In this document: piece after piece, positions 18,029 through 63,609 of the stretch
How positions within the stretch are numbered: position 1 is the stretch's first letter
Layout of the letters: each line of letters starts with the position of its first letter
NCBI GenBank assembly: GCA_964016885.1
Contig: OZ024743.1
Span: 125,054,001-125,118,000 of the forward strand
Length of the DNA: 64,000 nt
Source: Eledone cirrhosa
Taxonomy: Eukaryota
Direction: 5' to 3'
The notes under the pieces: generated by a model
The model's database searches: none
Seen by the model: the letters and a program-made list of their open reading frames with translations, nothing else
What the model was told of the DNA's origin: nothing
Position numbers and translations under genes: made by a program

Positions 18029-18218
18029 CGAAGGAAGTGTGGTAAGGAACCAGGTGGACCATAACGCACCAAAGTACTCAATACTTAGGGTAGTAGAGTG
18101 GGTAATAGGAATCAGTAAGACCCCGACGGCTGAGCTCAAGCCGTTTCGACGGCTAATTCTGGACTCCAGAATTAGCCGTCGAAACGGCTTGAGCTCAGCC
18201 GTCGGGGTCTTACTGATT

Positions 18219-18223
<5 letters not shown>
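18028..18223. repeat. (TA)n-embedded element with a perfect 59-bp-arm palindrome carrying the 3' half of a hammerhead
   Basis: 18105-18163 and 18165-18223 are exact inverted arms around C18164; each carries GAAACGGCT-TGAGCTC-AGCCGTC (stem III plus GUC). Confidence 0.8.
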
Positions 18224-18297: not shown

Positions 18298-18824
18298 ATA
18301 ATAATAAATGCGAAGACTAAAATCCAAAGAGGGATCGAAAATATATAAGAACCCTAGAGCAAATATTTATCAAAATAACAGATTAAAGTTTAATCAAAGA
18401 ATCGCTGCTTTGATCCTTAACGGGATCTTCTGAAACTAAAAAGAAATCAATCTGTGAACGCAGAAGTAAATATTTCGAAAAACGTTGCAACCAAAGGAAA
18501 ACAGGAAGACGATACTTTGGTTCGTGAAGATGTTCCCTGGCAATACGTCGTTTATGGTATAAAGACTCCATTTATACCATAAACGTGGTTTTGTCTTTGC
18601 GTGAAATTGTTCTCACGCTCCACATAACGACGTATTGTCTTCGCTTTTTCCGTTCATTGCCAGGGAACATCTTCACGAACCAAAGTATCGTCTTCCTGTT
18701 TTCCTTTGGTTGCAACGTTTTTCGAAATATTTACTTCTGCGTTCACAGATTGATTGTTTTTTAGTTTCAGAAGATCCCGTTAAGGGTGAAAGCAGCGATT
18801 CTTTGCTTAAACTTTAATCTGTTA

Positions 18825-18830
<6 letters not shown>
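18294..18830. mobile_element. Head-to-head inverted pair of a short non-autonomous element in (TA)n
   Basis: ~18373-18545 is the reverse complement of ~18656-18828; further family copies at 21081-21141 (-) and 22740-22848 (+). Confidence 0.8.
18745..18822 (+). ncRNA. Type-I hammerhead-like motif with variant core CAGAAGA
   Basis: Stem I AGTTT/AAACT (distal ACAGATTGA/TTAATCTGT), core CAGAAGA 18768-18774, stem II T-CCC gttaa GGG-T, GAAA 18788, stem III AGCAG/TTGCT, site CUU. Confidence 0.55.
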
Positions 18831-18873
<43 letters not shown>

Positions 18874-22845: not shown

Positions 22846-22897
<52 letters not shown>

Positions 22898-23358
22898 CGG
22901 CGATGAATTAGTTTTGCGAGGTTTTTTTATATGAAATCGTGTGTCGAAACAGATATTGTTATATTTGGGGAGGGTCATATTTGCGTAATATTGCCAGAAT
23001 TAATAACAGAACACACTCACTGTTTGGTTGGTTTTCGCTTCTCGCTGTCTTTTATATCTGCGGTCTAACTTACTCGGTCCTCAATGTTGCCATTGACTGA
23101 CCGACGGTCAAAAATAATACAGATACAATATAGACACAAACACATATATATAGTTTACATAAATCTTTCGTTGCACATCTGCAACATCGTCAGTGGTGTT
23201 ATATTCATTGTTCCTCCTGTTGTGTTGTATGTCTACGCCATTTTTTTTAATTCAGTCTGTCTATATATTTATTTATTTATTTGCTTGTTTGTTTATCAGT
23301 GAGTGTGTTCTGTTATTAATTCTGGCAATATTACGCAAATATGACCCTCCCCAAATAT

Positions 23359-23430
<72 letters not shown>

Positions 23431-24137: not shown

Positions 24138-24260
24138 ATATATGGAGAGTGTTTACTTTCATTACATGTGTTTCACCTTTGACAATTACATGATCCGTAT
24201 GTAACTATAGCGTACGTCTCGGTTCGTCGTGTGAGTATAAACAATCAATCATTATTTGCA

Positions 24261-24367
24261 TTCATCTGATGAGTCCGTAATTCTGGAGTCGAACCCCCAT
24301 TGTTGTATACAAATTTTGTAATCGCAAATGGTTTTGAACCGACTTACGAGTGAACACGCGTAATGAA
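24261..24367 (+). ncRNA. Degenerate type-I hammerhead motif
   Basis: TTCAT-CTGATGA(24266)-long stem II-GAACACGCGTA-ATGAA; the inverted partial copy at ~24157-24176 preserves GAAACACATGTAATGAAA. Confidence 0.45.
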
Positions 24368-24518
24368 AATACACATATGTTTAATTGATAACGCACTCTC
24401 CATTTTTATACTTATAATCTGTGGTCACATTTGACACAAGGTAATTGTTATTCTTCGTCCTTTGTGTTGACATATTACATCGAGTGCTAAATATGGTTAA
24501 TTGCAATCAAACCAACAG

Positions 24519-24589
<71 letters not shown>

Positions 24590-24655
24590 TATACACACAC
24601 ACACACATATATATATATATACATATATATAGGTATACACACACACACACACATA

Positions 24656-24683
<28 letters not shown>

Positions 24684-24686
<3 letters not shown>

Positions 24687-25200
24687 GACAAGTAAGTATG
24701 TTTTGAAACAGTGAGCAGGTTTGAAATTAGAAAATAGAATAACTTTCACCATATTTTTGACTAAAGAAATTTTAGTCTGATAATGGGGTTTAGAACCCTC
24801 AGATAAATGGAAAAAGATGAGTATTGACGTACATGGGAGTCGAACCCACATCTTTAGTTATCCAGACCACTGTGCTACCATTACACCAACACATCACTCA
24901 TCTCCTTCCATTCAAATTAGAAGCTACATTCTTAGCGATGGGTGATGTGTTGGTGTAATGGTAGCACAGTGGTCTGGATAACCAAAGATGTGGGTTCGAC
25001 TCCCATGTACGTCAATACTCATCTTTTTCCATTTATCTGAGGGTTCTAAACCCCATTATCAGACTAAAATTTCTTTAGTCAAAAATACGGTGAAAGCTAT
25101 TCTATTTTCTAATTTCAAACCTGCTCACTGTTTCAAAACATACTTACTTGTCATTTATACTCGCTAAGAATGTAGCTTCTAATTTGAATGGAAGGAGATA
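24684..25200. mobile_element. Head-to-head, circularly permuted pair of a ~260-nt element containing a tRNA-like module, inserted in (TA)n
   Basis: ~24684-24896 is the reverse complement of ~24943-25154, and 24899-24939 is the reverse complement of 25161-25200; A-box TGGTGTAATGGT and B-box GGTTCGACTCC. Confidence 0.75.
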
Positions 25201-25204
25201 TATA

Positions 25205-26391
25205 TGTATAAAAATATAAATTCAGAGAGAATCGTATTTCGGCGGGTAGAAATAAGCGAAACGCAATTTCCGAGTTGTGTTGGCAAGCGCTCCATGGACC
25301 AAAAGAGACCAGAGCAATAAACATAAGTTATAAAGGCCATACAAACTGAGACGACAACCACCTAAGCCAAAAAGAACGAGGCAAGTTAAACGGGTCAAAC
25401 AAAATAAATGAAATATTTACCCGGACCCTGGGAAATGATGGTATAATCCAGTACAGAGTTTCTGCGACACCTAAATCAATAATACTGTCTGCTTAAAAAA
25501 ATAAGCTTTTGGTATAATGATCGAACAAGGTTGTCACTTTCTCAACAGGTATTTTGTTCTGCACCAGCGTTTTGAATCACACAGTGTTTTGTAGTAGTCA
25601 AAGCACATGTGTAACTCTACAGGGGAGAAAACCCCAAATTTTGGCAAATGAATTCAGTATGTGTAAATCAATGCAAAAATTGCAAAAACACTACAAATCG
25701 AATTAAGCTCTCGACCGGCGGCGTAAAGAAGCTGTTAAAACAGCAAAATGCCGTGGAAACGGCGTTGAATAAAACATTATCTCGAAGAATAGGAATCAGC
25801 GGCTCGAAGAATTGATAGGAAGGAAAGAATAGAGTGGATTAGAGATCACAAACATTTAAATATACTAATCAGCTTTCAGACCATCTGCAGTTTCAAAGAT
25901 TTGACTGAAAGGACTGCGAAGGACAGGCGGCTCGTAACAACGGAGAAATAAATATCTCCGTAGGTATGATGTTATAATGTTTGTGTTGAGACAGGTCAGA
26001 GAGAGAGTGAGAGAGAGAGATGAATTGCGTCCACTCGTCGTCGCAAGAAAGGAAGAACAATGTCATTGTAAGCGGAAGTGGCCTGTAGAAGGTAGAGGGA
26101 AAGAAAGAAAGCAAGCAGTGAGAGGGAAGGGAGAGAGAGAACGAAAGAACGGGGAACAAAGGAAGAGGGAAGAAAAGACAACTCACCTTAAGCATGGTAT
26201 AAATCCGCAATAGCTACAATAGGTATGATAATGTATAAACAAAATTCGCACTCCTTTCAGTCAAATCGTTTTACTCTACGTCGGTTCGACGGCATTCTTC
26301 TGTTTTAACAGCTTCCTTACGCCGGGCTTTTCCATTTTCCTACGAATTCTAATACACTTGCATTTCAAAACTCGATATTCGAGTTAATTTT

Positions 26392-26400: not shown

Positions 26401-29933
<3,533 letters not shown>

Positions 29934-38045: not shown

Positions 38046-38455
38046 TGAAGAGTTAAACAAAATTCAATGAGTATATCAAAGAATGAGTTTTACAGTAGAT
38101 TGGAAGCACTCTACGAAAAATAATTTTCCAGAGTTATTAATATTAGAATATAAATATTAATAAAATAGATGTTCTTTTGATGAATTACATTTTATTATAC
38201 ATATTTCGGATGTACAACAGTACGTCCTCATCAGACAAAATATAATGATACATGACATACCCTGAGATGTTAAGATTTAATGGTTAAGATTTAATCAATG
38301 GTTAAGATTTAATATTAACCATTTAACATCTCAGGGTATGTCATGTATCATTATATTTTGTCTGATGAGGACGTACTGTTGTACATCCGAAATATGTATA
38401 ATAAAATGTAATTGATCAAAAGAACATCTATTTTATTAATATTTATATTCTAATA
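38046..38455. mobile_element. Head-to-head inverted pair of a hammerhead-bearing element in (TA)n
   Basis: ~38142-38272 is the reverse complement of ~38323-38454; the centre has (ggttaagatttaat)-type stutter repeats. Confidence 0.8.
38347..38416 (+). ncRNA. Minimal type-I hammerhead ribozyme; mirror copy on - at ~38184-38249
   Basis: TTATATTTTGT-CTGATGA(38362)-GGAcGTACtgttGTACaTCC-GAAA-TATGTA-TA^-ATAAAATGTAA. Confidence 0.8.
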
Positions 38456-38513
38456 TATAGATATATAGTGACGAAAACATAAGTCAATTGCATGAACTCA
38501 TAATCCTTTATTT

Positions 38514-38569
38514 ACTGCTATATATATTTCGATGATAGCCATTGAATGGCTATGACCTCATCAGGCAGT
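38514..38569 (-). ncRNA. Minimal type-I hammerhead ribozyme (different family)
   Basis: Minus strand: ACTGC-CTGATGA-GGTcATAGCCATtcaATGGCTATcATC-GAAA-TATATA-TA^-GCAGT. Confidence 0.8.
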
Positions 38570-38683
38570 TAGTCAGTTCTTAGATATGCCAGCTCTGTGT
38601 TTATAGTGTTGATGGTATCAGAGCCTTGGGACATATATATATATATATATATATATAGATATATATATATCTCTCTATCTCTT

Positions 38684-39337: not shown

Positions 39338-41268
39338 TTGGATCAGTCTAGGGCATTCGATAGGGTCGACCATCGATACTTGGAAGCGGTTCTCAAGGCG
39401 GCCGGTTTCGGTCCCGTGTTCAGAGGATGGATCGAGGCGATGCACACCAGCATCTGCTCGAGGGTCAAGGTGAACGGCTACCTATCGGAGCCGTTCGCAA
39501 TCACGCGTTCCATTCGACAGGGATGCCCTCTCTCCTCCATTCTGTATGTATTGACTCTAGAGCCACTACTGCGGAAATTGGAGCTGTTTTAGGGCATCCC
39601 CCTAGAACCGGTACTGCGCAAAGCGGCGTCGGCTTATGCCGACGACGTGACAGTAATGGTGTCGAGCACCTCGGAAATCGGGGTGATCGGCAACATACTG
39701 AAAGAATACGAAACGCTGACGGGAGCAAAACTAAACCCAGACAAGTCTGTCGGTTTGCAACTCGGTACGTGGAGAGGCAAACCGATGACATCCGACAGCG
39801 TCGTTGGACGCTGGACGGACGGACCGGTGAAATTGCTCGGGGTCTGGTTCGGTCCAGACCTCCAGGTGGAGAAAAACTGGAACGAGGTCACGGCCAAGGT
39901 GTTTGCACTCACTCAGAAGTGGACAGAGTGCAAACTGTCCTTGAAAGGTCGAGCGGAGGTGGCGAACACTTTCATAGCGTCCGTCATCTACTACTGCTTG
40001 ACTGTCGTGCCTTGTCCCCGTGAACACCTCGCCAAGATGGAACGCATGCTCTTCCAGTTTCTGTGGAAGAAGCAGGCTCCGCTGGTGAGGAGATCCGTCT
40101 GCTGTCAGCACCCTTCCAACGGAGGGCTGGGAATGCCGTGGCTGATGATGCGCAAACATGCGCTGAGGCTGCGGCATCTCCAGGTATTCCTCACCGACCC
40201 CCAACCGGTGTGGGCACCGTTTGTGAGACAGGCTTTCCCACAGCTCGTCTCGCTAACGGAGCTGCAGTCCTGGGTGAAGAAAAGACCGAAAACGATGGGC
40301 GCCTGGCACATTGAATGCGCTCAGGCGCTCACAGTCCTCTGGCAAGCGGGCGCAGCAATCAGTGGAGACTCCACTTCGACATTCTATAGAGGGATTGTAC
40401 GTTACAAGGGCGACGACGTGCTCGGAGAGACTCTGGGCGTCGAAGACGATGAGCTCACCAGTATGTTTGGTAGGACTTTCCGCCCGGGACCTATGGACAA
40501 CTTCCAGAGGTCCCTGGCCTGGCAGTGCTACCGAGGAGCTCTACCGGTTCGTGACAAGATCTACAGGCACGGACGCCCTGGCAGGGATCCTTCCAAGAGG
40601 ACGTGTCCAAGATGTGCGCAGGACATTGAAACAGTTCTGCACGCAATTGTACACTGCCCGGGCGTAAGCGACCTGTGGAACTATGCAGAACAACTGCTGT
40701 CGCGTATGGGACAAATACAGTTGACTGCCGAGTCCATAGTAAGGATCAAACCGCCAGACTCTTTCAAAAACGAAAGAGAGGCGGTTTTCCTCTGTACGGT
40801 GGCTATGGTGAAAGAAGTTATATGGTGGACGAGGTTGAGAGGACTGAGGACAGATGCCTTTCTCTCCGGACAACAATTGATTCCATTCTTTAAGTATCAC
40901 TTTAGAAGGAGAATCAGGGTGGAGAGAGAGGCACTGCACCCCAGTAAATTTACTGAAAGGTGGGTGAATGAAGCGAAAATGGCCCGAGTGATTGGGCCTT
41001 CTCTGTTTATAAGCCTGTAGGTTGAGGAAGAGAGCAAAAGGAAGAAAGGAGCACTTGCACAACACGCTCCTTGAGTTGAGGGTTGTTCTATCGACGGGGT
41101 ATTAAACAACCCATTTGTGGCGCCTCCCCCCTATTGGGGATTTCGATTGTTGAAATTGTTTGTTTTTATATTTTTTACACGACTGTATGTAAAATCCCCG
41201 GCATGTCTTTGTATTGTCCCCTTTCTTGTTGCGCCCTTGTGGCTAATAAAGAAATCTATCTATATATA
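39338..41268 (+). mobile_element. Tx1/L1-like LINE, 5'-truncated (RT plus CCHC zinc finger), one in-frame stop
   Basis: LDQSRAFDRVDH, SIRQGCPLS, AYADD; TAG at 39590; ORF 39647-41020 with CPRC...H...C; 3'UTR with AATAAA. Confidence 0.92.
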
Positions 41269-42731
41269 TCGGATCGTGGAGAGGCAAACCGATGCCTTCC
41301 GATGGCGTCGTCGGACGCTGGACGGAAGGACCGGTAAAGCTGCTCGGGATCTGGACCTCCAGGTGGAGAAGAACTGGAACGAAGTGACGGCCAAGGTGTG
41401 CAAACTATCCTTGAAAGGTCGAGCGGAGGTGGCGAACACTTTTATAGCGTCCGCCATCTACTACCGCTTGACCGTCGTGCCTTGTCCAGCCAAAACGCTC
41501 ACTAAAATGGAGCGCGCGCTCTTCCAATTCCTTTGGAAGAGGCGGGCTCCTTTGGTGAGAAGATCCATCTCCTGCCAACACCCTTCTAACGGAGGGCTGG
41601 GGATGCCGTGACTGACGATGCGCAAACACGCGCTCAGGCTGCGGCATCTCTACTTATTCCTCACCGGACAACCGGTGTGGGCCCCGTTCGTGAGGCGAGC
41701 CTTCCCACGACTCGTCTCGCTGACCGAGCTACAGTCCTGGGTCAAGCAAAGACCGAGGAAAATGGGCGACTGGCACATCGAATGTGCTCAGGCGCTCACA
41801 GCCCTCTGGCAGGCGGACCCAGCGATCAGTGGAGACTCCACTTCGTCATTCTATAGAGAGTTGATCCGCAGCAAGTGCGACGCCGCGCTCGGAGAAACTC
41901 TAGGCGTAGAGGAAGATGAACTGGCCAGTCTGTTCGGTAGGACCTTCCGCCCGGGACCGATAGACAACTTCCAAAAGTCCCTGGCCTGGCAGTGCTACCG
42001 AGGAGCTCTACCAGTTTGAGACAAGCTCTACAGACATGGGCGCCCGGGCAGGGACCCTGCAAAAAAGATGTCCGAGGTGCGTGCGAGACGAAGAAACCGT
42101 CGCGCACGCATTCATACACTGCCCGGGCGTCACTGACCTGTGGGGCTATGTAGAACGACTATTTTCGCGGGTGAGACCAATCCGGTTGACCACCGAATCC
42201 ATTGTCATGATCAAACCGCCACCCTCCTTCAAAAACGAAGGAGAGGCGGTTTTCCTTTGTGCGATAGCTATGGCGAAAGAGGTTGTATGGTGGACAAGGT
42301 TGAAAGGGCTGAGGTCAGACACCTTTCTCTCCGGCCAACAACTGATTCTTTTTTTCAAATACCACTTTGGAAGAAGAATCAGGTTGGAAAGAGAGGTACT
42401 GTACCCCAGCAAGTTTTATGAAAGGTGGGTGAAAGTGGCGAGAATGGCTCGAGTGAATGGGCCTTCTCTCTATATCAGCCTGTAGGTTGAGGAAAAAGAG
42501 GAAGAGAGGAAAGGGGTACAAACTCTTCGTACTCCTGGAGATGAGGGTTGCACATTTTTTCGGGGGTATGTGTTACCCATATGAACTGTCTCCCCCTATT
42601 GGGGAAAATCGACTAATTTTTTTAATTGCATTTGTGATATTATTTTATGTTTTTATTGTATGTAAACTCCCCCCTTTGTATTTGTCCCCTTCTTTTGTGC
42701 CCCTGTTGCTAATAAAGAAACATATCTATAT
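41269..42731 (+). mobile_element. Second, diverged Tx1/L1-like LINE copy directly in tandem
   Basis: Homologous to 39770-41260 with a deletion and stops; has its own 3'UTR ending ctaataaagaaacatatctata. Confidence 0.9.
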
Positions 42732-53945: not shown

Positions 53946-55079
53946 ATGATATTCATTACACTTGACTATATCTTATACACCTTTAAAATGATCCTATTAT
54001 TTACTGAGTATTTCTTTAAAAATTTAAATTTTTTTAAATGATCTTCCTTCTTAAATTTAATATTTTTACCAGTTGACATTATTTTCCTAATGATACTCTT
54101 CTAAATCTATTTTTTTTAGATGTAGATTGATAATCTTTAATTGACATTATGAAAGATATCCTCTTTACGATAGTTCTTCTAAATGCACAATACTTTTTTC
54201 CTCTTTTTTGATCTTCAAACTTTTCACACATCTTTCGACTAAAATAATATATAATTGAAACTCTCATCCTTGAAAAAATTAATCTCACACTAAATAATAT
54301 ATAATTTTCTCTACATACTTTCTGAGTAAATCATTCATCAAATTTAACGGTTAGCAAATAAGATTGGAGTTATCTTTTCCTTCACAATCGAGCAAACAAA
54401 CATTATAACTTGTATGATAAACTATATAACTTCGCTAAATTAACAATATTCTGAAAACATTTTCAATGTTGGAACAAAATATTTGAATCTACAAATTGTT
54501 CCCCTCTTACAACTTGAACTACGTGTTTTTCTTAAAAAATTTTAATGTAAAATGCATAATCAACTTCCTGCGTAACTCATATAAGAAATGTAAACAACTA
54601 ATAATTGTGATTTATTTCTATAAAATCACCAATAATACTTATACTTGCACAATTATTAATCTATATAGATATTTATATACTTATAACCTGTTGCAATAAA
54701 ATAAGATAAAATGTACTTACAACTATAATTCTTCATATAATCTAATTGATTATATATACAATATTATAACTCATAATTGTTTCTACTTTAGGCACAAGGC
54801 CAGCAAATACCCAGTGCATTACTGGTACTTTATTTTATCGACCCCGTAAGGATGAAAGCCAAAGTCAACCTCGGCGGGATTTGAACTCAGATCGTAAAGG
54901 GACGTAACTATGCTGGAAAGTATGGCGTCCGACCCTCTACCGATATTGCCAATCCATAGCTAAATAATTTTAAATTCTGGAATCATATTCCACCATTCCT
55001 ACAAACTGTTAATTCTTTTTAAATTAACGTAAATACAAGCTCTTCTTTCTTTCTCTTTCTTCTTCCTTTACATACATAC

Positions 55080-55599
55080 ATATATCCTAATAATTATTTA
55101 AACTACATAGCATCTAAAAATAACGTTTATTTTCAGCCCTATACATCAACTTCATTTGCATATGCATCTTAATAATTTGAAATATTTGACTTTTCTTCTC
55201 TTTCCCTTCTTTCCTTTACTATCCAGGAAAAACTTGAACTGTTAAGTTATTCTTTCCTGGTTATGTCAATATTTATAAAACAAACTTTGTATTTTATCTG
55301 ATGAGAGCATACCAAAGTTTTGGTACCCTTGAAATATATATAATAGAATAAATATGGTTTTATAAATAGTTTCCATTTATTTAATATAATTGTATATATA
55401 TATATATTAATATATATAATGATATTAAATAAATGGAAACTATATTTATAAAACCATATTTATTCTATTATATATATTTCAAGGGTACCAAAACTTTGGT
55501 ATGCTCAAATTATTAAGATGAGTATGCAAATGAGGTTGAAGTATAGGGCTGAAAAAAACGTTATTCTTAGTTGCTATGTAGATTTAAATAATTATTAGG

Positions 55600-55605
<6 letters not shown>
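55080..55605. mobile_element. Tail-to-tail inverted pseudo-LTR pair
   Basis: ~55420-55600 is the reverse complement of 55305-55387 joined to 55085-55180, with an internal deletion that removes the ribozyme core. Confidence 0.7.
55290..55350 (+). ncRNA. Minimal type-I hammerhead ribozyme
   Basis: TATTTTAT-CTGATGA(55298)-GAGcaTACCAAAgtTTTGGTAccCTT-GAAA(55331)-TATATA-TA^-ATAGAATA. Confidence 0.78.
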
Positions 55606-55645
<40 letters not shown>

Positions 55646-55764: not shown

Positions 55765-58700
55765 TCATCATCATCAACTTTGTTTTAACGTCCGTTTTCC
55801 ACGCTAGCATGGGTTAGACGGGAGTTGTCCCACTTGAGGCAAGGCTGGTCGGGTGACCATGTCTCCTATATGAATAGGACTATCTGGAAGGTTTTCTACG
55901 GCTGGATGCCCTTCCTAACACCAACCACATTTACAGTGTGGAACTGGGATCTTTTTACCGTGTTACCTACACAGCCACATTACAGCGTGGACTGTGTGTT
56001 TTTTTGTCGTGACACCTACACGAACTCGATCTCATTTTCTCGTGCTGTTGGTGGGAGTGGGAGGATAGGGTAGGGGTAGTAGATTGGGGTGTATATTTGG
56101 TGAAGAGGTGCCTACTACTGTAGTAGGTTTCGCTTTGTACTTAGGCAAGGCGGGTCTTCTGTATTACTGCGTAGCGCCAAAGATCTCGGTCCAGTGACAT
56201 TGTCTTGGAGAGGTGTAAATGTGTAAGGTCGGAATTTATCAGATCGTCCCAGCTTTTTCTGGGTCTACCTACTCCGTAACTTCCATCAATTTTGATCACC
56301 CTGCACTTTTTTATACAGCTGTCGTCTTTCATGTGCATCACATGACCATACCAAATTAGTCTTCTCTCGAGTAAACAGCATCTGATCCCTCTTATTCCTA
56401 ATTTCTCACTTAGTTCATTTATGCTTTGCCGTTCACGTATATTACTATTACACATCCAACGGAGCATGCATGCTTCGTTCCTTTCCAGTCTACGCAGGTC
56501 CTCTGCATGTAAGGCCCATGTCTCACTGCCATGTAGCATTGCTGTTCGTATGCAGGCATCATACAATCTGCCTTTCATTTTTAGAGAGAAACCTTTTGTG
56601 GCCAACAGCGGTATAAGCTCTCTGAAATTTTTCCATCCCGTTCTGACTCTGGCTACTGTACTTTCAGAAAACCCTCCACCACTGCTGATTTCGTCACCCA
56701 GGTAACGGAAAGTGTCTACTATTTCTATAAAACTATCGGGGCAATGGAAGGAGCTAGTATCCTTTGCACACTTGCTACTTATTGCACTCGAGCATCGGCC
56801 ACATATAAAGTCTATGTTCTGAGATAGTTTATCTGTGATCCCACTACATCTTTTATGTACCCATAGTTTGCATTTGGGACATAAAATGGAATTTCTGCCT
56901 ACACACTGAGCATGGCCATTTCCCTGAGGGCACCTGTGCCCTATTTTCCTTTCTACAAACTAGGACTTTAGTCTTAGACAAGTTAACTTTAAGGCCTTTT
57001 GATTCTAGGCCATGCTTCCATGTTTGGAATTTCTTCTCTAGTTCAGCCATTGATTCAGCTATGAGCGTTAGATCATCTGCGTATAGGAGTTCCCATGGGC
57101 AGCCGGTCTTGAACTCCTCTGTTATAGCCTGAAGAGCAATAATAAATAAGAGGGGGCTAAGGACAGAGCCTTGATGAACGCCGACTTTTACACTAAATTC
57201 TTCACAATATTCATTGTTAATTCTAACCTTACTGACTGTTTCATTATACATAGCTTGTATAGCTCTCACAAGCCATTCATCCACACCTAGTTTTCTAAGA
57301 GCCCACCAGATAATGAAGCGGGGGACTCTGTCAAAAGCTTTCTCCAGGTCTACAAAAGCTAAGTAGAGGGGTTTACTTTTAGCTAGGTACTTCTCTTGTA
57401 GTTGTCGTACAAGGAAAAGAGCGTCTGTGGTACTTTTACCTGACACAAACCCAAACTGCATTTCATCTAGATCAATTCGCTCTCTGATTAGTTGCGCTAT
57501 AACTCTTTCTGTGACCTTCATGACCTGGTCAACTAACTTAATGCCTCTATAGTTTCCCCTATCTAGAGCATCCCCTTTATCCTTGTAGCAGTTAATGATG
57601 ATGTTGCTACGCCAGTCTTTTGGTATGACCCCGTTCTGTATTACTTGGTTAACTATACAGGTGACCATAGTGTGTCCCACAATACCAGATGCCTTCTACA
57701 TCTCAGCAACTATTTCCGAAGGCCCAGCTGCCTTGCCTGTCTTCATATCTTTGATTGCCTTACTTATTATACTACCTTTAACTTGCACCGTTGGTCCTTC
57801 TATTGGATCGATTTGGGGCAGACTATCTTTTTCCCATTTATTCTCCTCATTTAATAGTCTCTCGTAGTGACACTTCCAGGCTATCTTCTTATCAGTATCA
57901 GTGAGCGCAAGTACACCATTATCATTACGGACACACTTCTCTCTGACAATATCACGGTTTTCCTTGACACATTGTCTAGCAATCCTGAACGCCTCGCGTT
58001 TTTGGTCCTCATGTTGTAGTACATGCTTGAACTTTCTATCCTCTGCTACCCTTTTTGCAAGGTACACCTGTCTCCTAGCTTCTCTCCTGTCCACTTGATA
58101 GTGCTCTCTACTTCCCCCATCCTGCCATACTTTCCAAGCCTGCTTTTTGGCCTTGATTGTCTCCTCCACCTTAGTGTTCCACCACCAAGTTACTCTCCTC
58201 CTGCCAATAGGTCTGCTCCAGCCACAGATTTCATCCGTTGCTTTCAGCAGGTTCACTTTCAAGAATTGCCACTGTTCCTCTATATTGCCCGTCTCTAATT
58301 GCTCTTCCTTATTGTCAAAGGCATCAAGTAATAAGCTTTTACATTTGTCACTGGCTATGGGGTCCTTCAACTTCCATATTCTTCTCCTCAAGGTAGGCCT
58401 CCTCTGTCGTCGAGTACGTTTATTCCTGACTATGAAGTCACTAACTACTAGGCTATGTTGGGAGGTGCATTCTTCACGGGGGAGGGATTTAGTGTTTACA
58501 ACAGACATTTTGTCCCGTCTTCTAGTAAGGATATAATCTATCTGGCTGGCGTGGTCCCCTGATTTATAGGTGATCAAGTGGTTTTCACGTTTTTTTGAAG
58601 TTTGTGTTACAGATAGTTAGGCTATTTGCGTCACAGAATTCCAGGATTCTGAAGCCATCCTCATTTCTATTTCCAACCCCATAGCCTCCATGGATTCCAT

Positions 58701-59310
58701 CATAGCCATCACTATGTTGTCCAACGTGACCGTTTAGATCACCAGCAATAATTAAGTAGTCACTGTCGGTTATTTGGGAGGTAGTGTGCATTAGCATCTC
58801 ATAGAACCTGTCCTTTATAACATCAGGTAGACCAGATTGGGGTGCATCAGCAGATATTATTGTCACAGTAGTTCTATTTAGAACTAGTCTTAATTCAATT
58901 ATTCTGTCATTCACTCTATTTACGTCAATTACCTTATCTACCCATTTTTCAGCTAACATAATTCCTACACCACACTGTCCGTTGTCATTTCCCACCCAGA
59001 AAAGTTTATAGCATCGTTTTTTACCTACGATGAATCTGGCAGACCGCCCTCTCCACCTAGTCTCTTGGAAACAACAAACATCAACTTCTTTACGTTCAAG
59101 CATCTCTACAACCTAATTTGAGTGACCTTTCAATGTGCCTACGTTCATGGTACCAACTCTGAAGTTGGGAGGGTGGGATGGATGGGTTGGAGGGGCAGGC
59201 AGGGGTGTAGGAGACGGGATTTTGTTGGTCTTCTGTGTCTGAAATAAAGAGGGGTCCTTGTATTCTCATCTTGCAGCAGGAGGTGAATTTATCTTTATCT
59301 GTGACATTGT
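55765..59310 (-). mobile_element. Near full-length RTE-clade LINE (APE endonuclease, RT, PHD-like insert), frameshifted
   Basis: VGTMNVGTL, QETRW, GDLNGH, SQIDYI; FVDLEKAFDRVP, GVHQGSVLSP, LYADD; RTE C-terminus; (GAT)n tail. Confidence 0.93.
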
Positions 59311-60007
59311 CATTGAGTGCTTAGACTTTTCAAATGTCTAAACTTAAGGAGTAGTAACAGGGGTGGTAGCTTTGCTATACTGATTTGTTAGAGAACTTAC
59401 TAAAGTCGCTGAGTTATGATTGGACCATATAGCAATGGTGGTGTGTGGGAGTGGGAGGGCGGGAAATGGGTGACTTTAGGAGAAGTTTAGTTTTTAGGAA
59501 AGATCCAGCAGATTTAGACATATTAAAAAACATAATAATTTAAAATCAGAGAGGAAAAATGGAGAATTTGAATTTTAGAGTGGTAAATAAGATTATAAAA
59601 ACACTGCTTAATTGAGGAGACTACGGAAATAAAGAAAAGACAGGTTTTGCTTACATTCTCAAAATCGACAGTTCGCCCTTAAGATAGATTAGATAGATAA
59701 ATTTTGTCGTTGGAAGCCAGCAAGATTTATTTTATACTTGCGATCAGGCGGGGGGGGGGGGGGGGGGTGAGAGAGGGAGAAAAGTGTTTACAAAGTTTGC
59801 GAGCGAGATGCAGGAAGGTTCTAGAATAATTATAGGTGACTTTAGGAAAAGTTTAGTTTTTAGGAAAGATACAACAGATTTAGACATATTAAAAAAATAT
59901 AATAATTTAAAATCAGAGAGGAAAAACATATATATATATAATTTATAATATATATATTATATATATATATAATATATAATATATATATTATATATATATA
60001 TATATAT

Positions 60008-60038
<31 letters not shown>

Positions 60039-60062
60039 ATATATATATATATATATTATATA

Positions 60063-63000
60063 TCATCATCATCATCATCATCACCGTTTTACGTCCGTTC
60101 TTCCACGCTAGCATGGGTTAGACGGGTTGTCCTGTTGTGGGCAGTGTCTGGTCGGCTGACCATGCCTTGCTCATACAGGAACTGATCTGGCTTGATTTCT
60201 ACAGCTGGATGCCCTTCCTAACACCAACCTCATTTACAGTGAGTGCTGGGTGCTTTTTCGTGGCGCCTACACGTCCACTTTACAGTGTGGGCTGGGTGCT
60301 TTTTTGCCGTGGCACCTCCACGACCACCTTGCGGTGGGGGGGGGGGGGGGCATATTGTTTATATGCTTCAGCATGTACCCATGGGAGGTCGGGTACCCTG
60401 TATTACTGCGTGACGCCAGAAGTCACGGTCGTGTGTCATTGACTTTGAGAGGTGTAGTTGGGTAAGGTCGGCTTTTATCACCTCATCCCAAGTCATCTTG
60501 GGTCTCCCCACTCCGCGGTTTCCATCAACTTCTAGTGCTCTGCACCTTTTTATGCAGCTGTCATCCTTCATACGCATCACATGTCCATACCAGCGTAACC
60601 GCCTCTCCTGCACGCAGCATTTGATTCCTCTTATGCTCAGTCTCTCTCTCAATTCATTTATGCTTTGTCGTTCACGTATATTACTGTTACACATCCATCG
60701 GAGCATGCAGGCTTCGTTTCTCTCTAATCTACGTAAGTCTTCCACCTTCAGCGCCCAGGTCTCACTACCATGCAACATCGCTGTTCGGATACACGCATCA
60801 TACAGTCTGCCTTTCATTCTGAGGGAGAAGCCTTTTGCAGCTAGCAGTGGTAGTAGTTCCCTAAACTTCTTCCATCCCGTTCTTACCCTAGTTATTGTAC
60901 TTTCTGAGCACCCACCTCCGTTGCTAATTCGGTCACCTAGGTAGCAGAAGCTGTCTACTGTTTCTCCAGGGCCCTCCCAGAGATTGGTGGTACTTGTTTC
61001 CTGTGGCTGTTTGCTTGCTGTTTCAGCACAGCTGCTGCATGTGAATCCTACATTCTTAATTAAGCTTCCTGAGATCCCGCTACATCTCTTGTGTACCCAT
61101 TGTTTGCATTTGGGGCAAAGAATGGAGTTCCTACCTACACCTTTCCTACATACTGAGCAAGGCCATTTCCCTGAGGGGATCTGGGTTCTGTTTTCTCGTC
61201 TACTTATAAGGACCTTAGTCTTTGTCATGTTGACTTTGAGGCCCTTTCTCTCTAGTCCCTGCTTCCAGGTTTGGAATTTATTCTCTAGTTCTACCATAGA
61301 TTCAGCTATGAGTGCGAGGTCATCAGCATACAGGAGTTCCCATGGGCATCCGGTCTTAAACTCCTCCGTTATTGCCTGCAGGACTATGATGAACAGGAGA
61401 GGGCTAAGAACAGAGCCCTGGTGGACCCCAACCTGTACGCTAAATTCCTCGCTATACTCATTGCCAATCCTAACTTTGCTGACTGCTCCCCTATACATGG
61501 CTTGTACCGCTTTCACAAGCCATTCATCTACTCCTAGTTTTCTAAGAGCCCACCAGATTACTGCACGTGGAACTCTGTCAAAGGCTTTCTCAAGGTCGAC
61601 AAATGCCAAGTAGAGTGGCTTACTTTTAGCTAGGTACTTTTCCTGTAATTGCCTCACAAGGAAGAGCGCATCAGTGGTGCCTTTCCCTGGAACAAACCCA
61701 AATTGCATCTCGTCTATATTCACCCGGTCCCTAATCAGCTGTGCTATAACTCTTTCTGTTACTTTCATGACCTGGTCCATCAACTTTATACCTCTATAGT
61801 TTCCTCTATCTAGTGCATCGCCTTTACCTTTGTAGCAGTTGACAATGATGCTACTGCACCAATCTTTTGGTATGGCCCCCTCTAGTATTACCTGGTTAAC
61901 GATACGTGTGGTTATAGTGTGACCTACAGACCCAGATGCCTTCAGCATCTCGGCAGCTATACCCGATGGACCGGTTGCCTTCCCTATCTTCATATCTCTG
62001 ATTGCCTTACTTACTACGCTGCCGCTGACTTGTACTGCTGGTCCCTCTATAGGGTCTACGTGGGGTAGGGTCTCTTCTTCCCATGCATTCTCCTCATTTA
62101 GTAATCTATCATAATGACTCTTCCATGCATCTTTCTTCTCAGCACTTGTGAGGGCAAGCTCACCTTTATCATTCCGGATACACTTCTCTCCAATGACATC
62201 ACAACTATCTCTGACACACTGCCTCGCAATCTTGAATACCTCCTGTTTCTGGTCCTCACGTTGTAAAACATGCTTGAATTTTCTATCCTCTGCTTCCCTC
62301 CTAGCTAAGTATACTTGTCGCCTAGCTTCCCTCTTGGTCTCTATGTAATGTACCCTGCTCCCCCCGTTCTTCCATTCTTTCCATGCCTGTCTCTTGGCCT
62401 TGACTGCTTCATCTACTTTATTGTTCCACCACCAAGTCACTCTCCTCCTGCTTGAGGTCTTACTCCAGCCACAAACCTCATCCGTCGCCTCTAGTAAGTT
62501 ATTTTTTAGGAACTCCCAGTTCTCTTCTACGTTAAATGTCTCTATCTGTTCTTCTTTACTGTCGTAGGCGTTGAGTAAAATATCTTTAAATCTGTTACTG
62601 GTTGAGGGGACTTTCAGCTTCCAGATCTTTCTTCTCCAGGTTGGCCTCTGTTTCAGGGCTCGTCTAGTTCTGACCGTGAGGTCGCTGACAACTAAGCTAT
62701 GTTGGGATGTACATTCCTCACTAGGAAGGCTTTTGTGTTACGACCGTCCATCTGTCACGTCCTCTGATGAGAATAAAATCTAACTGACTAGAGTGCTCCC
62801 CTGATCTATAGGTGATCAGGTGGTTGTCGGGTTTTTTAAAGTTTGTGTTACATATCGACATGTCATTGGCGTCGCAGAATTCTAGAAGTCTGAATCCTTC
62901 CTCATTCCTTGTGCCAACTCCATGGCCTCCATGTACTCTATTGAAGCCGTCGCAGTGTTTACCTACGTGTCCGTTAAAATCTCCTGCAATGATTAGGAAG

Positions 63001-63131
63001 TCCTTGTCGTCTGTTAGAGCAGTAGTGTGTATTAGGGACTCGTAAAACCTATCCTTAAGTTCGTCTGGCAGCCCCGATTGGGGTGCGTAAGCTGATATTA
63101 TTGTGGTAATTGTCTTATTCAGGACTAGTCT
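60063..63131 (-). mobile_element. Second RTE LINE (diverged subfamily), 5'-truncated, with a long open RT region
   Basis: 690-aa ORF 60368-62440 with RT motifs and CSVC..CPKC..H..C..CSSC; APE fragment 62721-63131; (GAT)n tail. Confidence 0.95.
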
Positions 63132-63149
63132 GAATATATATATATATAT

Positions 63150-63609
63150 ATGTAGGAGGTGAGTTTTATTGTAGTACAATAAAGCAATGCAGATATCGGA
63201 TAAGAAGCACTCTACAGTTTGTGGGACTGGAGTATGCATAATATAAGATCAAAAGATGGTTAAAGGAGTTCCATATATTTTATTATGCGCATTTCAAAAA
63301 CAAACATCATCAAGCAATAATATTTGTGTTATATATATTATATGTAGGAGGTGAGTTTTATTGTAGTACAATAAAGCAATGCAGATATCGGATAAGAAGC
63401 ACTCTACAGTTTGTGGGACTGGAGTATGCATAATATAAGATCAAAAGATGGTTAAAGGAGTTCCATATATTTTATTATGCGCATTCAAAAACAAACATCA
63501 TCAAGCAATAATATTTGTGTTTTCATCAGATAAAACAGGAGAACATGATATGAAGGCTAAAAAACACTTGTGGATAGTGCAGTTATATATGTTGATTTAA
63601 AACTGCAAT

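What the first reader, a model, noticed from the sequence alone, without database searches (positions are those of the whole stretch)
24684..25200. tRNA-like module inside a permuted ~260-nt unit inserted in PLE fashion
Seen: same architecture (minus arm B-A, plus arm A-B, both ending in (TA)n). The unit carries Pol III A and B boxes (TGGTGTAATGGT, GGTTCGACTCC) in a tRNA-like segment (~24943-25014). In the B-A order this segment is clamped by a long stem (AATGGAAGGAGATGAGTG pairing with TACTCATCTTTTTCCATT) that contains a T5 terminator-like run. The tRNA part is internal, not at the 5' head as in ordinary SINEs. Inference: a Pol III-driven or tRNA-processing-dependent mini-element mobilised by PLE machinery, where tRNA maturation might substitute for a ribozyme. 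I could not fit a canonical hammerhead.
Basis: partly seen in the sequence, partly recalled or inferred. Interest (0 to 1): 0.72.

Follow-up and report, generated by a model that had tools for sequence, protein, structure and literature searches.

The report
Penelope-copied tRNA mimic with methyl footprint
This is one copy of a non-coding, roughly 260-base repeat with thousands of copies that carries a tRNA look-alike and no self-cutting ribozyme and is likely pasted into TA microsatellites by Penelope-type retrotransposon enzymes; about six in ten copied arms that reach the tRNA break off just before its base A58 unless that base is changed, so the DNA copies likely record a host methyl mark on the RNA.

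Summary
Observation confirmed. Two head-to-head arms of a circularly permuted 260-nt unit end in TA runs; each holds a cloverleaf (Rfam tRNA 49.7 and 45 bits) that in B-A order sits on a 19-bp stem. The family has at least 3,393 exact motif matches and five subfamilies. Across 89 loci it shows the Penelope-like (PLE) signature: 129 of 150 arms join (TA)n (background 15%), 59 loci are head-to-head, and the two 3' ends use two sites about 45 nt apart (36 of 36). It is not a 5'-headed SINE and has no hammerhead. Arms stop just 3' of tRNA base A58 in two A58 subfamilies (39 of 61, 25 of 41) but not in a T58 subfamily (4 of 52), which points to an m1A58 reverse-transcription stop. No helper PLE was identified and no RNA could be tested. 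Closest known: animal non-LTR retrozymes and schistosome Sm-alpha. This scan reported the same family at eight other places in this genome.

The parts
24521..24686 (.). (CA)n/(TA)n microsatellite target, left side
24684..24938 (-). Left arm, about one unit, u218 through u260/u1 to about u212-216 (u1 = first tRNA base = window 24944 on the plus arm); 3' end joins (TA)n
24825..24895 (-). tRNA-like module of the left arm
   Evidence: ARAGORN; Rfam 45 bits
24896..24914 (-). 5' strand of the 19-bp clamp that extends the acceptor stem
   Evidence: fold; duplex kept in 5 of 5 subfamilies
24804..24822 (-). 3' strand of the clamp, containing the T5 run
24937..25199 (+). Right arm, u254 to u256 of the next turn (1.01 unit); meets the left arm head-to-head with a 2-nt overlap
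24944..25014 (+). tRNA-like module: cloverleaf, short variable loop, anticodon loop not conserved between subfamilies
24951..24961 (+). A-box-like D arm
   Evidence: sequence; 1,306 exact 19-mer matches in the genome
24993..25003 (+). B-box-like T arm; A58 equivalent at 24999 (u56)
24998..25009 (+). u55-66: zone where most family arms begin (inferred reverse-transcription stop), with the CATG palindrome at 25004-25007
25024..25028 (+). T5 run, Pol III terminator-like
25095..25117 (+). u152-174: first family-wide 3'-end zone (inferred reverse-transcription start site A)
25143..25159 (+). u200-216: second family-wide 3'-end zone (inferred start site B)
25161..25199 (+). Segment B (u218-256): the 39-40-nt one-sided extension of this copy, PLE-tail-like
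25198..25205 (+). (AT)4, right side of the target

Best explanation
It is a non-coding, permuted tandem repeat with a conserved tRNA-shaped module that is likely copied from its own RNA into (TA)n by the reverse transcriptase and GIY-YIG endonuclease of an autonomous Penelope-like element. Inferred steps: read-through transcripts of tandem copies (more likely Pol II than Pol III) fold each unit into a tRNA on a long stalk; the host T-loop methylase marks A58; the PLE enzyme nicks both strands of a TA run and starts two cDNAs inside the unit, one at about u170 and one at about u216; most cDNAs stall at m1A58, the rest run on to the tRNA 5' end or into the upstream unit; the two cDNA ends are joined back to back, often at the CATG palindrome. 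The tRNA module most likely stands where the hammerhead stands in retrozymes, as an RNA-level handle that sets the 5' end of, or protects, unit-length RNA; that last step is the least supported.
For: Shown: 129 of 150 arms in 89 loci join (TA)4+ versus 1,370 of 9,371 background positions; 59 of 89 loci head-to-head; 61 of 89 with an arm over 1.05 unit, 19 with 2 or more. In 43 head-to-head loci with both arms TA-joined the offsets are 33-153 nt, median 46, and 36 of 36 with both ends in the two zones use one of each, p 1.5e-11. This matches the PLE tail, inversions and two-site internal initiation on both strands (PMC8557442; PMC11167929). Intact 784-aa PLE ORFs exist in the genome. u8-63 varies at 2 of 56 columns versus 58 of 141 elsewhere among four subfamilies, p 1.6e-8; 4 of 4 stem changes in the T58 subfamily keep or restore a pair. 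Stops at u55-66: 39 of 61 and 25 of 41 arms in A58 subfamilies, 4 of 52 in T58, which keeps the same T stem and CATG; one arm per locus 51 of 81 versus 3 of 44, p 3e-10. m1A in GUUCRA T loops is written by TRMT6/61A, also on non-tRNA transcripts, and truncates cDNA (10.1101/202747). Excess of 5' ends at the tRNA start: 8 of 19 (p 0.003) and 20 of 72.
Against: No helper identified: no significant nucleotide match between the unit and 31 + 50 PLE loci (best E 0.56 and 0.12). No empty-site or transposition evidence. Misincorporation at A58 in read-through copies is not raised (4 of 186; 16 versus 8 at a control A, p 0.15). Most stops lie 4-9 nt 3' of the expected u57 (only 5 of 39 at u55-58), so trimming must be assumed. 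T58 differs at two loop bases and is older, so age or a different enzyme is not excluded. The tRNA-start excess is weak in the 290-nt subfamily (2 of 12) and not above the local rate in T58 (7 of 20). The 290-nt subfamily loses pairs 1:70 and 2:69 in register. A paired leader would be expected to hinder RNase P (general knowledge). An m1A58 mark needs only the T hairpin, so it does not prove that the full cloverleaf is recognised.
Confidence: 0.65

Rival explanations
1. Same PLE passenger, but the tRNA module is kept as an internal Pol III promoter that transcribes the downstream part of tandem arrays, as proposed for schistosome Sm-alpha.
For: A and B boxes intact in 4 of 5 subfamilies and the most conserved part of the unit; 5' ends cluster from u8 to -10 (20 of 72); Sm-alpha precedent.
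Against: T5 (T8 plus T7 in T58) lies between the tRNA and the start sites in 5 of 5 subfamilies; T58 lacks the B-box consensus yet has 377 motif matches; 52 of 72 arms extend more than 10 nt upstream of the tRNA.
Confidence: 0.2
2. The copies are 5'-truncated terminal repeats (pLTRs) of an autonomous PLE, not yet found, that holds a tRNA-like sequence.
For: Same end pattern as autonomous PLEs, e.g. the Hydra-type copy at window 26443-29830; retrozymes derive from pLTRs (10.64898/2026.07.22.740005); only part of the genome's PLE families was sampled.
Against: Arms run through up to 4.1 perfect units with nothing between them. In the 90 loci, PLE ORF pieces occurred in 4 and none was a sense-strand ORF running directly into an arm. 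No match to 81 PLE loci.
Confidence: 0.07
3. The pile-up at u55-66 comes from nuclease cutting of the RNA in the T loop (3' tRNA-fragment-like), not from a methyl stop. This rival concerns one step only.
For: It also predicts dependence on loop sequence; no misincorporation signal at u56; tRNA fragments are known to be retroposed (10.1101/2025.02.02.635956, for halves).
Against: The boundary falls at the A58 position and vanishes with loss of the GUUCRA motif, which is the known TRMT6/61A rule.
Confidence: 0.15
4. An ordinary tRNA-headed SINE mobilised by a LINE, with tandem and inverted forms made later at DNA level.
For: Some arms begin at the tRNA start; one 25-unit array has turned over like a minisatellite.
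Against: No fixed 5' end, no fixed 3' tail, two internal alternative 3' ends, 59 of 89 inversions, permuted arms.
Confidence: 0.02

Closest known systems
Animal non-LTR retrozymes (PMC7229834, passages; 10.64898/2026.07.22.740005, parts 1-3 of 5)
   Same: Short AT-rich non-coding tandem unit of about 300 nt, dispersed monomers to multimers, proposed PLE passenger
   Different: Defined by a type I hammerhead in each unit; none here. A conserved tRNA-like module on a stalk instead; no homology to a sampled pLTR; circles not shown
Schistosome Sm-alpha / Sj-alpha SINE-like elements (PMC2770079, PMC6765202, PMC8490949, passages; the 1998 original was not held)
   Same: tRNA-derived (tRNA-Gln-like) part plus tandem organisation in one short unit
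   Different: Sm-alpha keeps an active hammerhead and is described as Pol III-transcribed; the passages seen describe no PLE-type inversions, tails or A58 stop
EN+ Penelope-like elements, Hydra / Neptune / Naiad (PMC8557442, passages and sections 6, 11; PMC11167929, parts 1-2 of 4)
   Same: (TA)n target, partial tandems, inverted 5'-truncated arm, one-sided tail of about 30-45 nt, two internal start sites
   Different: No ORF; tRNA module; no shared sequence found
Non-autonomous Chlamys elements such as MRC1 (PMC8557442, passage)
   Same: Non-autonomous PLE passengers with multicopy head-to-tail insertions in a clade mostly without hammerheads
   Different: Those resemble autonomous families at the 3' end; no tRNA part is mentioned in the passage seen
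Helenus / Ajax / Cassandra (TRIMp3; PMC10886601, passages)
   Same: Small-RNA-gene-derived sequence placed inside a non-SINE passenger element
   Different: LTR-type with PBS, PPT and 4-5 bp TSD; here PLE-type ends
tRNA-derived SINEs (definition from PMC10886601 passage)
   Same: tRNA-derived A and B boxes, short, non-coding, high copy
   Different: tRNA is not a fixed 5' head; no LINE-like 3' tail; permuted, tandem and inverted copies

Membership tests
PLE-mobilised non-autonomous element | 3' ends joined to AT-rich / (TA)n target | tested here: met
   129 of 150 arms versus 14.6% background; 43 of 76 in the older T58 subfamily
PLE-mobilised non-autonomous element | Partial tandems and inverted 5'-truncated arm | tested here: met
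   61 of 89 and 59 of 89 loci
PLE-mobilised non-autonomous element | One-sided tail from two internal start sites | tested here: met
   36 of 36 A+B pairs; median offset 46 nt in 43 loci
PLE-mobilised non-autonomous element | Sequence shared with the pLTR of an autonomous PLE | tested here: inconclusive
   No significant match in 81 PLE loci, a small sample of more than 10,000 candidates
PLE-mobilised non-autonomous element | Mobilised in trans by PLE protein | not testable with these tools
   Needs an in vitro or cell assay
Non-LTR retrozyme | Type I hammerhead in each unit | tested here: not met
   No exact core on either strand of 5 of 5 subfamily units; three one-mismatch hits, all antisense; cores found in neighbours as positive control
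Non-LTR retrozyme | Short non-coding tandem unit | tested here: met
   260-291-nt periods
Non-LTR retrozyme | Expressed as circular RNA | not testable with these tools
   No RNA run available; within-array variant test mixed
tRNA-derived SINE | tRNA-derived A and B boxes | tested here: met
   4 of 5 subfamilies
tRNA-derived SINE | tRNA as fixed 5' head | tested here: not met
   52 of 72 arms extend more than 10 nt upstream; 8 of 87 arms chosen by a 3' motif start near u1
tRNA-derived SINE | Fixed LINE-like 3' tail | tested here: not met
   Two internal 3' zones, no tail repeat of its own
Sm-alpha-like element | tRNA-derived part plus hammerhead in a tandem unit | tested here: not met
   Hammerhead absent
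Sm-alpha-like element | Pol III transcription of multimers | not testable with these tools
   Sequence argues against it: T5-T8 run, broken B box in T58
Functional tRNA gene | Conserved anticodon and isotype identity | tested here: not met
   Loop differs among subfamilies; GGA anticodon with a short variable loop; 36-48 of 71 identity to the genome's tRNA hits examined

The most novel reading that the evidence does not exclude
A ribozyme-free retrozyme: host tRNA enzymes do the hammerhead's job. RNase P cuts tandem transcripts at each tRNA 5' end, the clamp holds the new 3' end next to the 5' end and shields the RNase Z site, the monomer is ligated to a circle, and a PLE reverse transcriptase copies it by rolling circle. 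The thousands of genomic junctions are a fossil map of m1A58 on a parasite RNA, subfamily by subfamily.
Probability: 0.22. Interest if true: 0.86.

Novelty: new variant of a known kind. Interest (0 to 1): 0.66.

Why it matters
It would add a third way to use a tRNA-derived module in a passenger retroelement, beside SINE heads (LINE-driven) and TRIMp3 LTRs, and show that PLE passengers need no hammerhead, which bears on the open question of what hammerheads do for PLEs. The strict pairing of two start sites on opposite arms gives a genome-scale test of the two-strand, internal-initiation model shown in vitro for one PLE. A modification-dependent breakpoint with a natural A58-less control means genomic DNA can report a germline RNA modification, and suggests host tRNA methylation limits this element's copying. 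Practically, thousands of copies will be mis-called as tRNA-Ser genes or SINEs.

Tried and rejected
No RNA holder listed; three coded contig sets were laid instead and show joints at the same T-arm zone but no empty site (one sample, depth is no copy number). Source tRNA: not found among 23 ARAGORN genes in 16 Rfam loci; the D arm recalls eukaryotic tRNA-Gln (recalled, not tested). Helper search: no nucleotide match to PLE loci; four 5' joins to other TA-inserted elements looked like co-insertions, but on reading only L014, L019 and L088 abut directly and nesting is not excluded. The neighbour at 24139-24500 shares 15 of 16 nt with the B box but is an old unrelated family. Palindrome-only cause of the pile-up rejected: T58 keeps CATG and lacks it, and 10 of the 39 stops join TA directly. 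A single fold-back master rejected: 17 CATG-centred loci differ in subfamily letters and 3' ends. An apparent pile-up at u41 was an alignment artefact removed by stricter scoring. Rolling circle: within-array variants were 24 shared by all copies, 29 partly shared, 321 private in 19 loci, and second-pass stops were rarer (3 of 13 versus 43 of 65, p 0.006, different samples); inconclusive. Misincorporation test negative or inconclusive. RNase Z release: 0 of 87 arms start at u72. Searches (poorly chosen ranges; wrong frame) were not used. Rfam found no hammerhead anywhere in the window, including elements with clear cores, so it was not used as a negative.

Full report
OBSERVATION. The window holds two back-to-back arms: 24684-24938 on the minus strand and 24937-25199 on the plus strand. 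The shared A part is 223 nt and 98% complementary, the B part 39 nt and 100%. The left end joins a long TA run; the right end joins (AT)4. Each arm has a cloverleaf (ARAGORN; Rfam tRNA 49.7 and 45 bits). In B-A order the cloverleaf sits on a 19-bp extension of its acceptor stem (z -4.26). There is no hammerhead core in the insert, though the same scan finds cores in neighbouring elements. Below, u1 is the first tRNA base (window 24944), and A58 of tRNA numbering is u56.

FAMILY. The genome is 3.0 Gb and unnamed; a neighbouring repeat recalls octopus SINEs (recalled, no call). A DNA search gave 1,936 candidates, 40 scored. Exact motif counts: 1,306 for the A-box 19-mer, and 1,756, 1,260 and 377 for 3' motifs of three subfamily groups; tandem arms count more than once and mutated copies are missed. 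Five subfamilies were resolved: two of 260 nt, one each of 269, 290 and 289 nt. The window copy is young: its right arm differs from the 260-nt majority at 1 of 256 positions.

END STRUCTURE. I mapped arms in 89 loci (100 fetched, 10 overlapping duplicates and the long array L081 left out). 129 of 150 arms of 50 nt or more join (TA)4+ at their tRNA-sense 3' end, against 1,370 of 9,371 random flank positions. 59 of 89 loci are head-to-head, 2 have a tail-to-tail join, 61 have an arm longer than 1.05 unit and 19 one of two units or more. The 3' ends fall in two zones, about u152-174 and u200-216. In 43 head-to-head loci with both arms TA-joined the two ends differ by 33-153 nt (median 46), and all 36 with both ends in the zones use one of each (p 1.5e-11). 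Partial tandems, an inverted 5'-truncated arm, a 30-40-nt one-sided tail and (TA)n targets are the described PLE pattern (PMC8557442; passages and sections 6 and 11), and a purified PLE protein cuts and extends both strands and starts at two internal sites (PMC11167929, parts 1-2 of 4). Young intact 784-aa Hydra-type ORFs and long Neptune-type ORFs are present, but the unit shares no significant sequence with 81 PLE loci, so the helper is not identified.

THE tRNA MODULE IS CONSTRAINED. Among four subfamily majorities, u8-63 varies at 2 of 56 columns, both in the anticodon loop, against 58 of 141 in u126-237 (p 1.6e-8). The more distant T58 subfamily is 62 of 71 identical in the tRNA and 146 of 225 elsewhere; its four stem changes all keep or restore a pair, each on one side only, and the clamp is kept with both strands lengthened. 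The 290-nt subfamily loses the first two acceptor pairs in register. The anticodon loop has three versions, so this is a mimic, not a decoder.

5' ENDS RECORD THE T LOOP. To avoid selecting for the tRNA, I chose arms by a motif at u131-153. Of 87 arms, 38 of the 60 that reach u65 end at u55-65, a rate of 0.091 per nt against 0.004-0.005 on either side. Of the 39 ending at u55-66, 19 start at the CATG palindrome at u61 and 10 join TA directly. The CATG-centred loci belong to several subfamilies with different 3' ends, so they are separate events (17 loci). Contigs of one DNA sample show joints in the same zone. I had this result before reading the scan's earlier notes; two of them named a subfamily without A58, which I then found and tested. 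Its T loop reads TTCGTGT while the T stem and CATG are unchanged. Stops at u55-66: 39 of 61 (260 nt), 25 of 41 (290 nt), 4 of 52 (T58); with one arm per locus 32 of 50, 19 of 31, 3 of 44 (p 3e-10). TRMT6/61A methylates the A of GUUCRA in 7-nt loops, also outside tRNAs, and m1A truncates cDNA imprecisely (10.1101/202747, passages); it acts on precursors before end processing (10.64898/2026.05.17.725798, abstract). An m1A58 stop followed by a few nt of trimming is the simplest reading. It also implies an RNA template in tRNA sense. Limits: T58 is older and differs at two bases; only 5 of 39 ends lie at u55-58; read-through copies show no excess change at u56; a T-loop cut would look similar.

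WHAT THE MODULE IS FOR. A second, smaller pile-up lies at the tRNA start: 8 of 19 and 20 of 72 in a set chosen by the A box, 5 of them at -1; it is weak in the 290-nt set (2 of 12) and not distinct in T58. None of 87 arms starts at u72, so RNase Z release is not recorded. Pol III drive is doubtful: a T5 run (T8 and T7 in T58) lies before the start sites, and T58 spread without a consensus B box. Since 52 of 72 arms run well upstream of a tRNA, many templates were multimeric or circular; variants within arrays do not decide between these. I therefore favour read-through transcripts in which the stalked tRNA acts at RNA level, setting a 5' end or protecting the unit. This step is inference.

COMPARISON. 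It works like an animal non-LTR retrozyme (PMC7229834, passages; 10.64898/2026.07.22.740005, parts 1-3 of 5) but fails the defining hammerhead test. Schistosome Sm-alpha combines a tRNA-Gln-like part with tandem units but keeps a hammerhead (PMC2770079, PMC8490949, PMC6765202, passages). Helenus and Ajax place tRNA-derived sequence in LTR passengers (PMC10886601, passages). [quoted passage not shown] Eight full-text searches listed no paper describing a hammerhead-free, tRNA-bearing PLE passenger or an A58 breakpoint in genomic copies; most hits were seen only as listings. An octopus repeat annotation (PMC13282606, part 1 of 3) lists hundreds of unclassified SINE families, so the family may sit in a library under another label. 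The scan itself reported this family at eight other places in this genome (the sequence look-up was blank); those are unchecked notes, not independent support.

VERDICT. Real, multi-copy and well supported as a PLE-type passenger; a new variant of a known kind. The A58-dependent breakpoint with its natural control is the most striking part. Interest 0.66.

Noticed in passing
window 26443-29830: Broken Penelope-like element on the minus strand with a terminal repeat, an inverted terminal repeat, (TA)n at both ends and a hammerhead-like core. Intact 784-aa relatives carry RWK, DKT and CxCX5C motifs, i.e. Hydra clade; its tail offset is about 160 nt, unlike the 45 nt of the tRNA unit. My note calling it Neptune-like was wrong.
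   Followed up: partly
L103, L105-L113 (about 1150-1950 in tRNA orientation): A second dispersed repeat of over 1 kb with a high-scoring tRNA (often anticodon GGC) about 305 nt inside a fixed 5' end that starts with a short hairpin next to TA; internal inverted repeats; looks like a non-autonomous DNA or rolling-circle element.
   Followed up: partly
L081:912-7830: About 25-unit array of the tRNA unit, still bounded by an inverted arm and (TA)n, with diverged units sharing deletions, i.e. later minisatellite-like turnover.
   Followed up: partly
window 38046-38630, 55069-55616, 22897-23362, 24139-24500: Other short (TA)n-embedded fold-back elements with hammerhead-like CUGANGA cores; 24139-24500 is an old low-copy family.
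   Followed up: partly
window 18074-18222 and 18363-18837: Further (TA)n-embedded palindromic repeat families, found next to tRNA-unit arms in several loci.
   Followed up: partly
L102, L104: Tandem cluster of tRNA-Thr-like genes, 7 and 5 calls in 3 kb.
   Followed up: no
window 39593-42485 and 56141-63248: Fragments of LINE-type ORFs, including a 789-aa open frame at 60368-62737 minus.
   Followed up: no
T58 subfamily, e.g. L303-L332: 5' ends are spread through the tRNA body (28 of 48 arms end at u54-15, several at u32-39 in the anticodon loop), and 3 arms of the 260-nt subfamily end at exactly u34: possible further modification stops or loop cuts.
   Followed up: no
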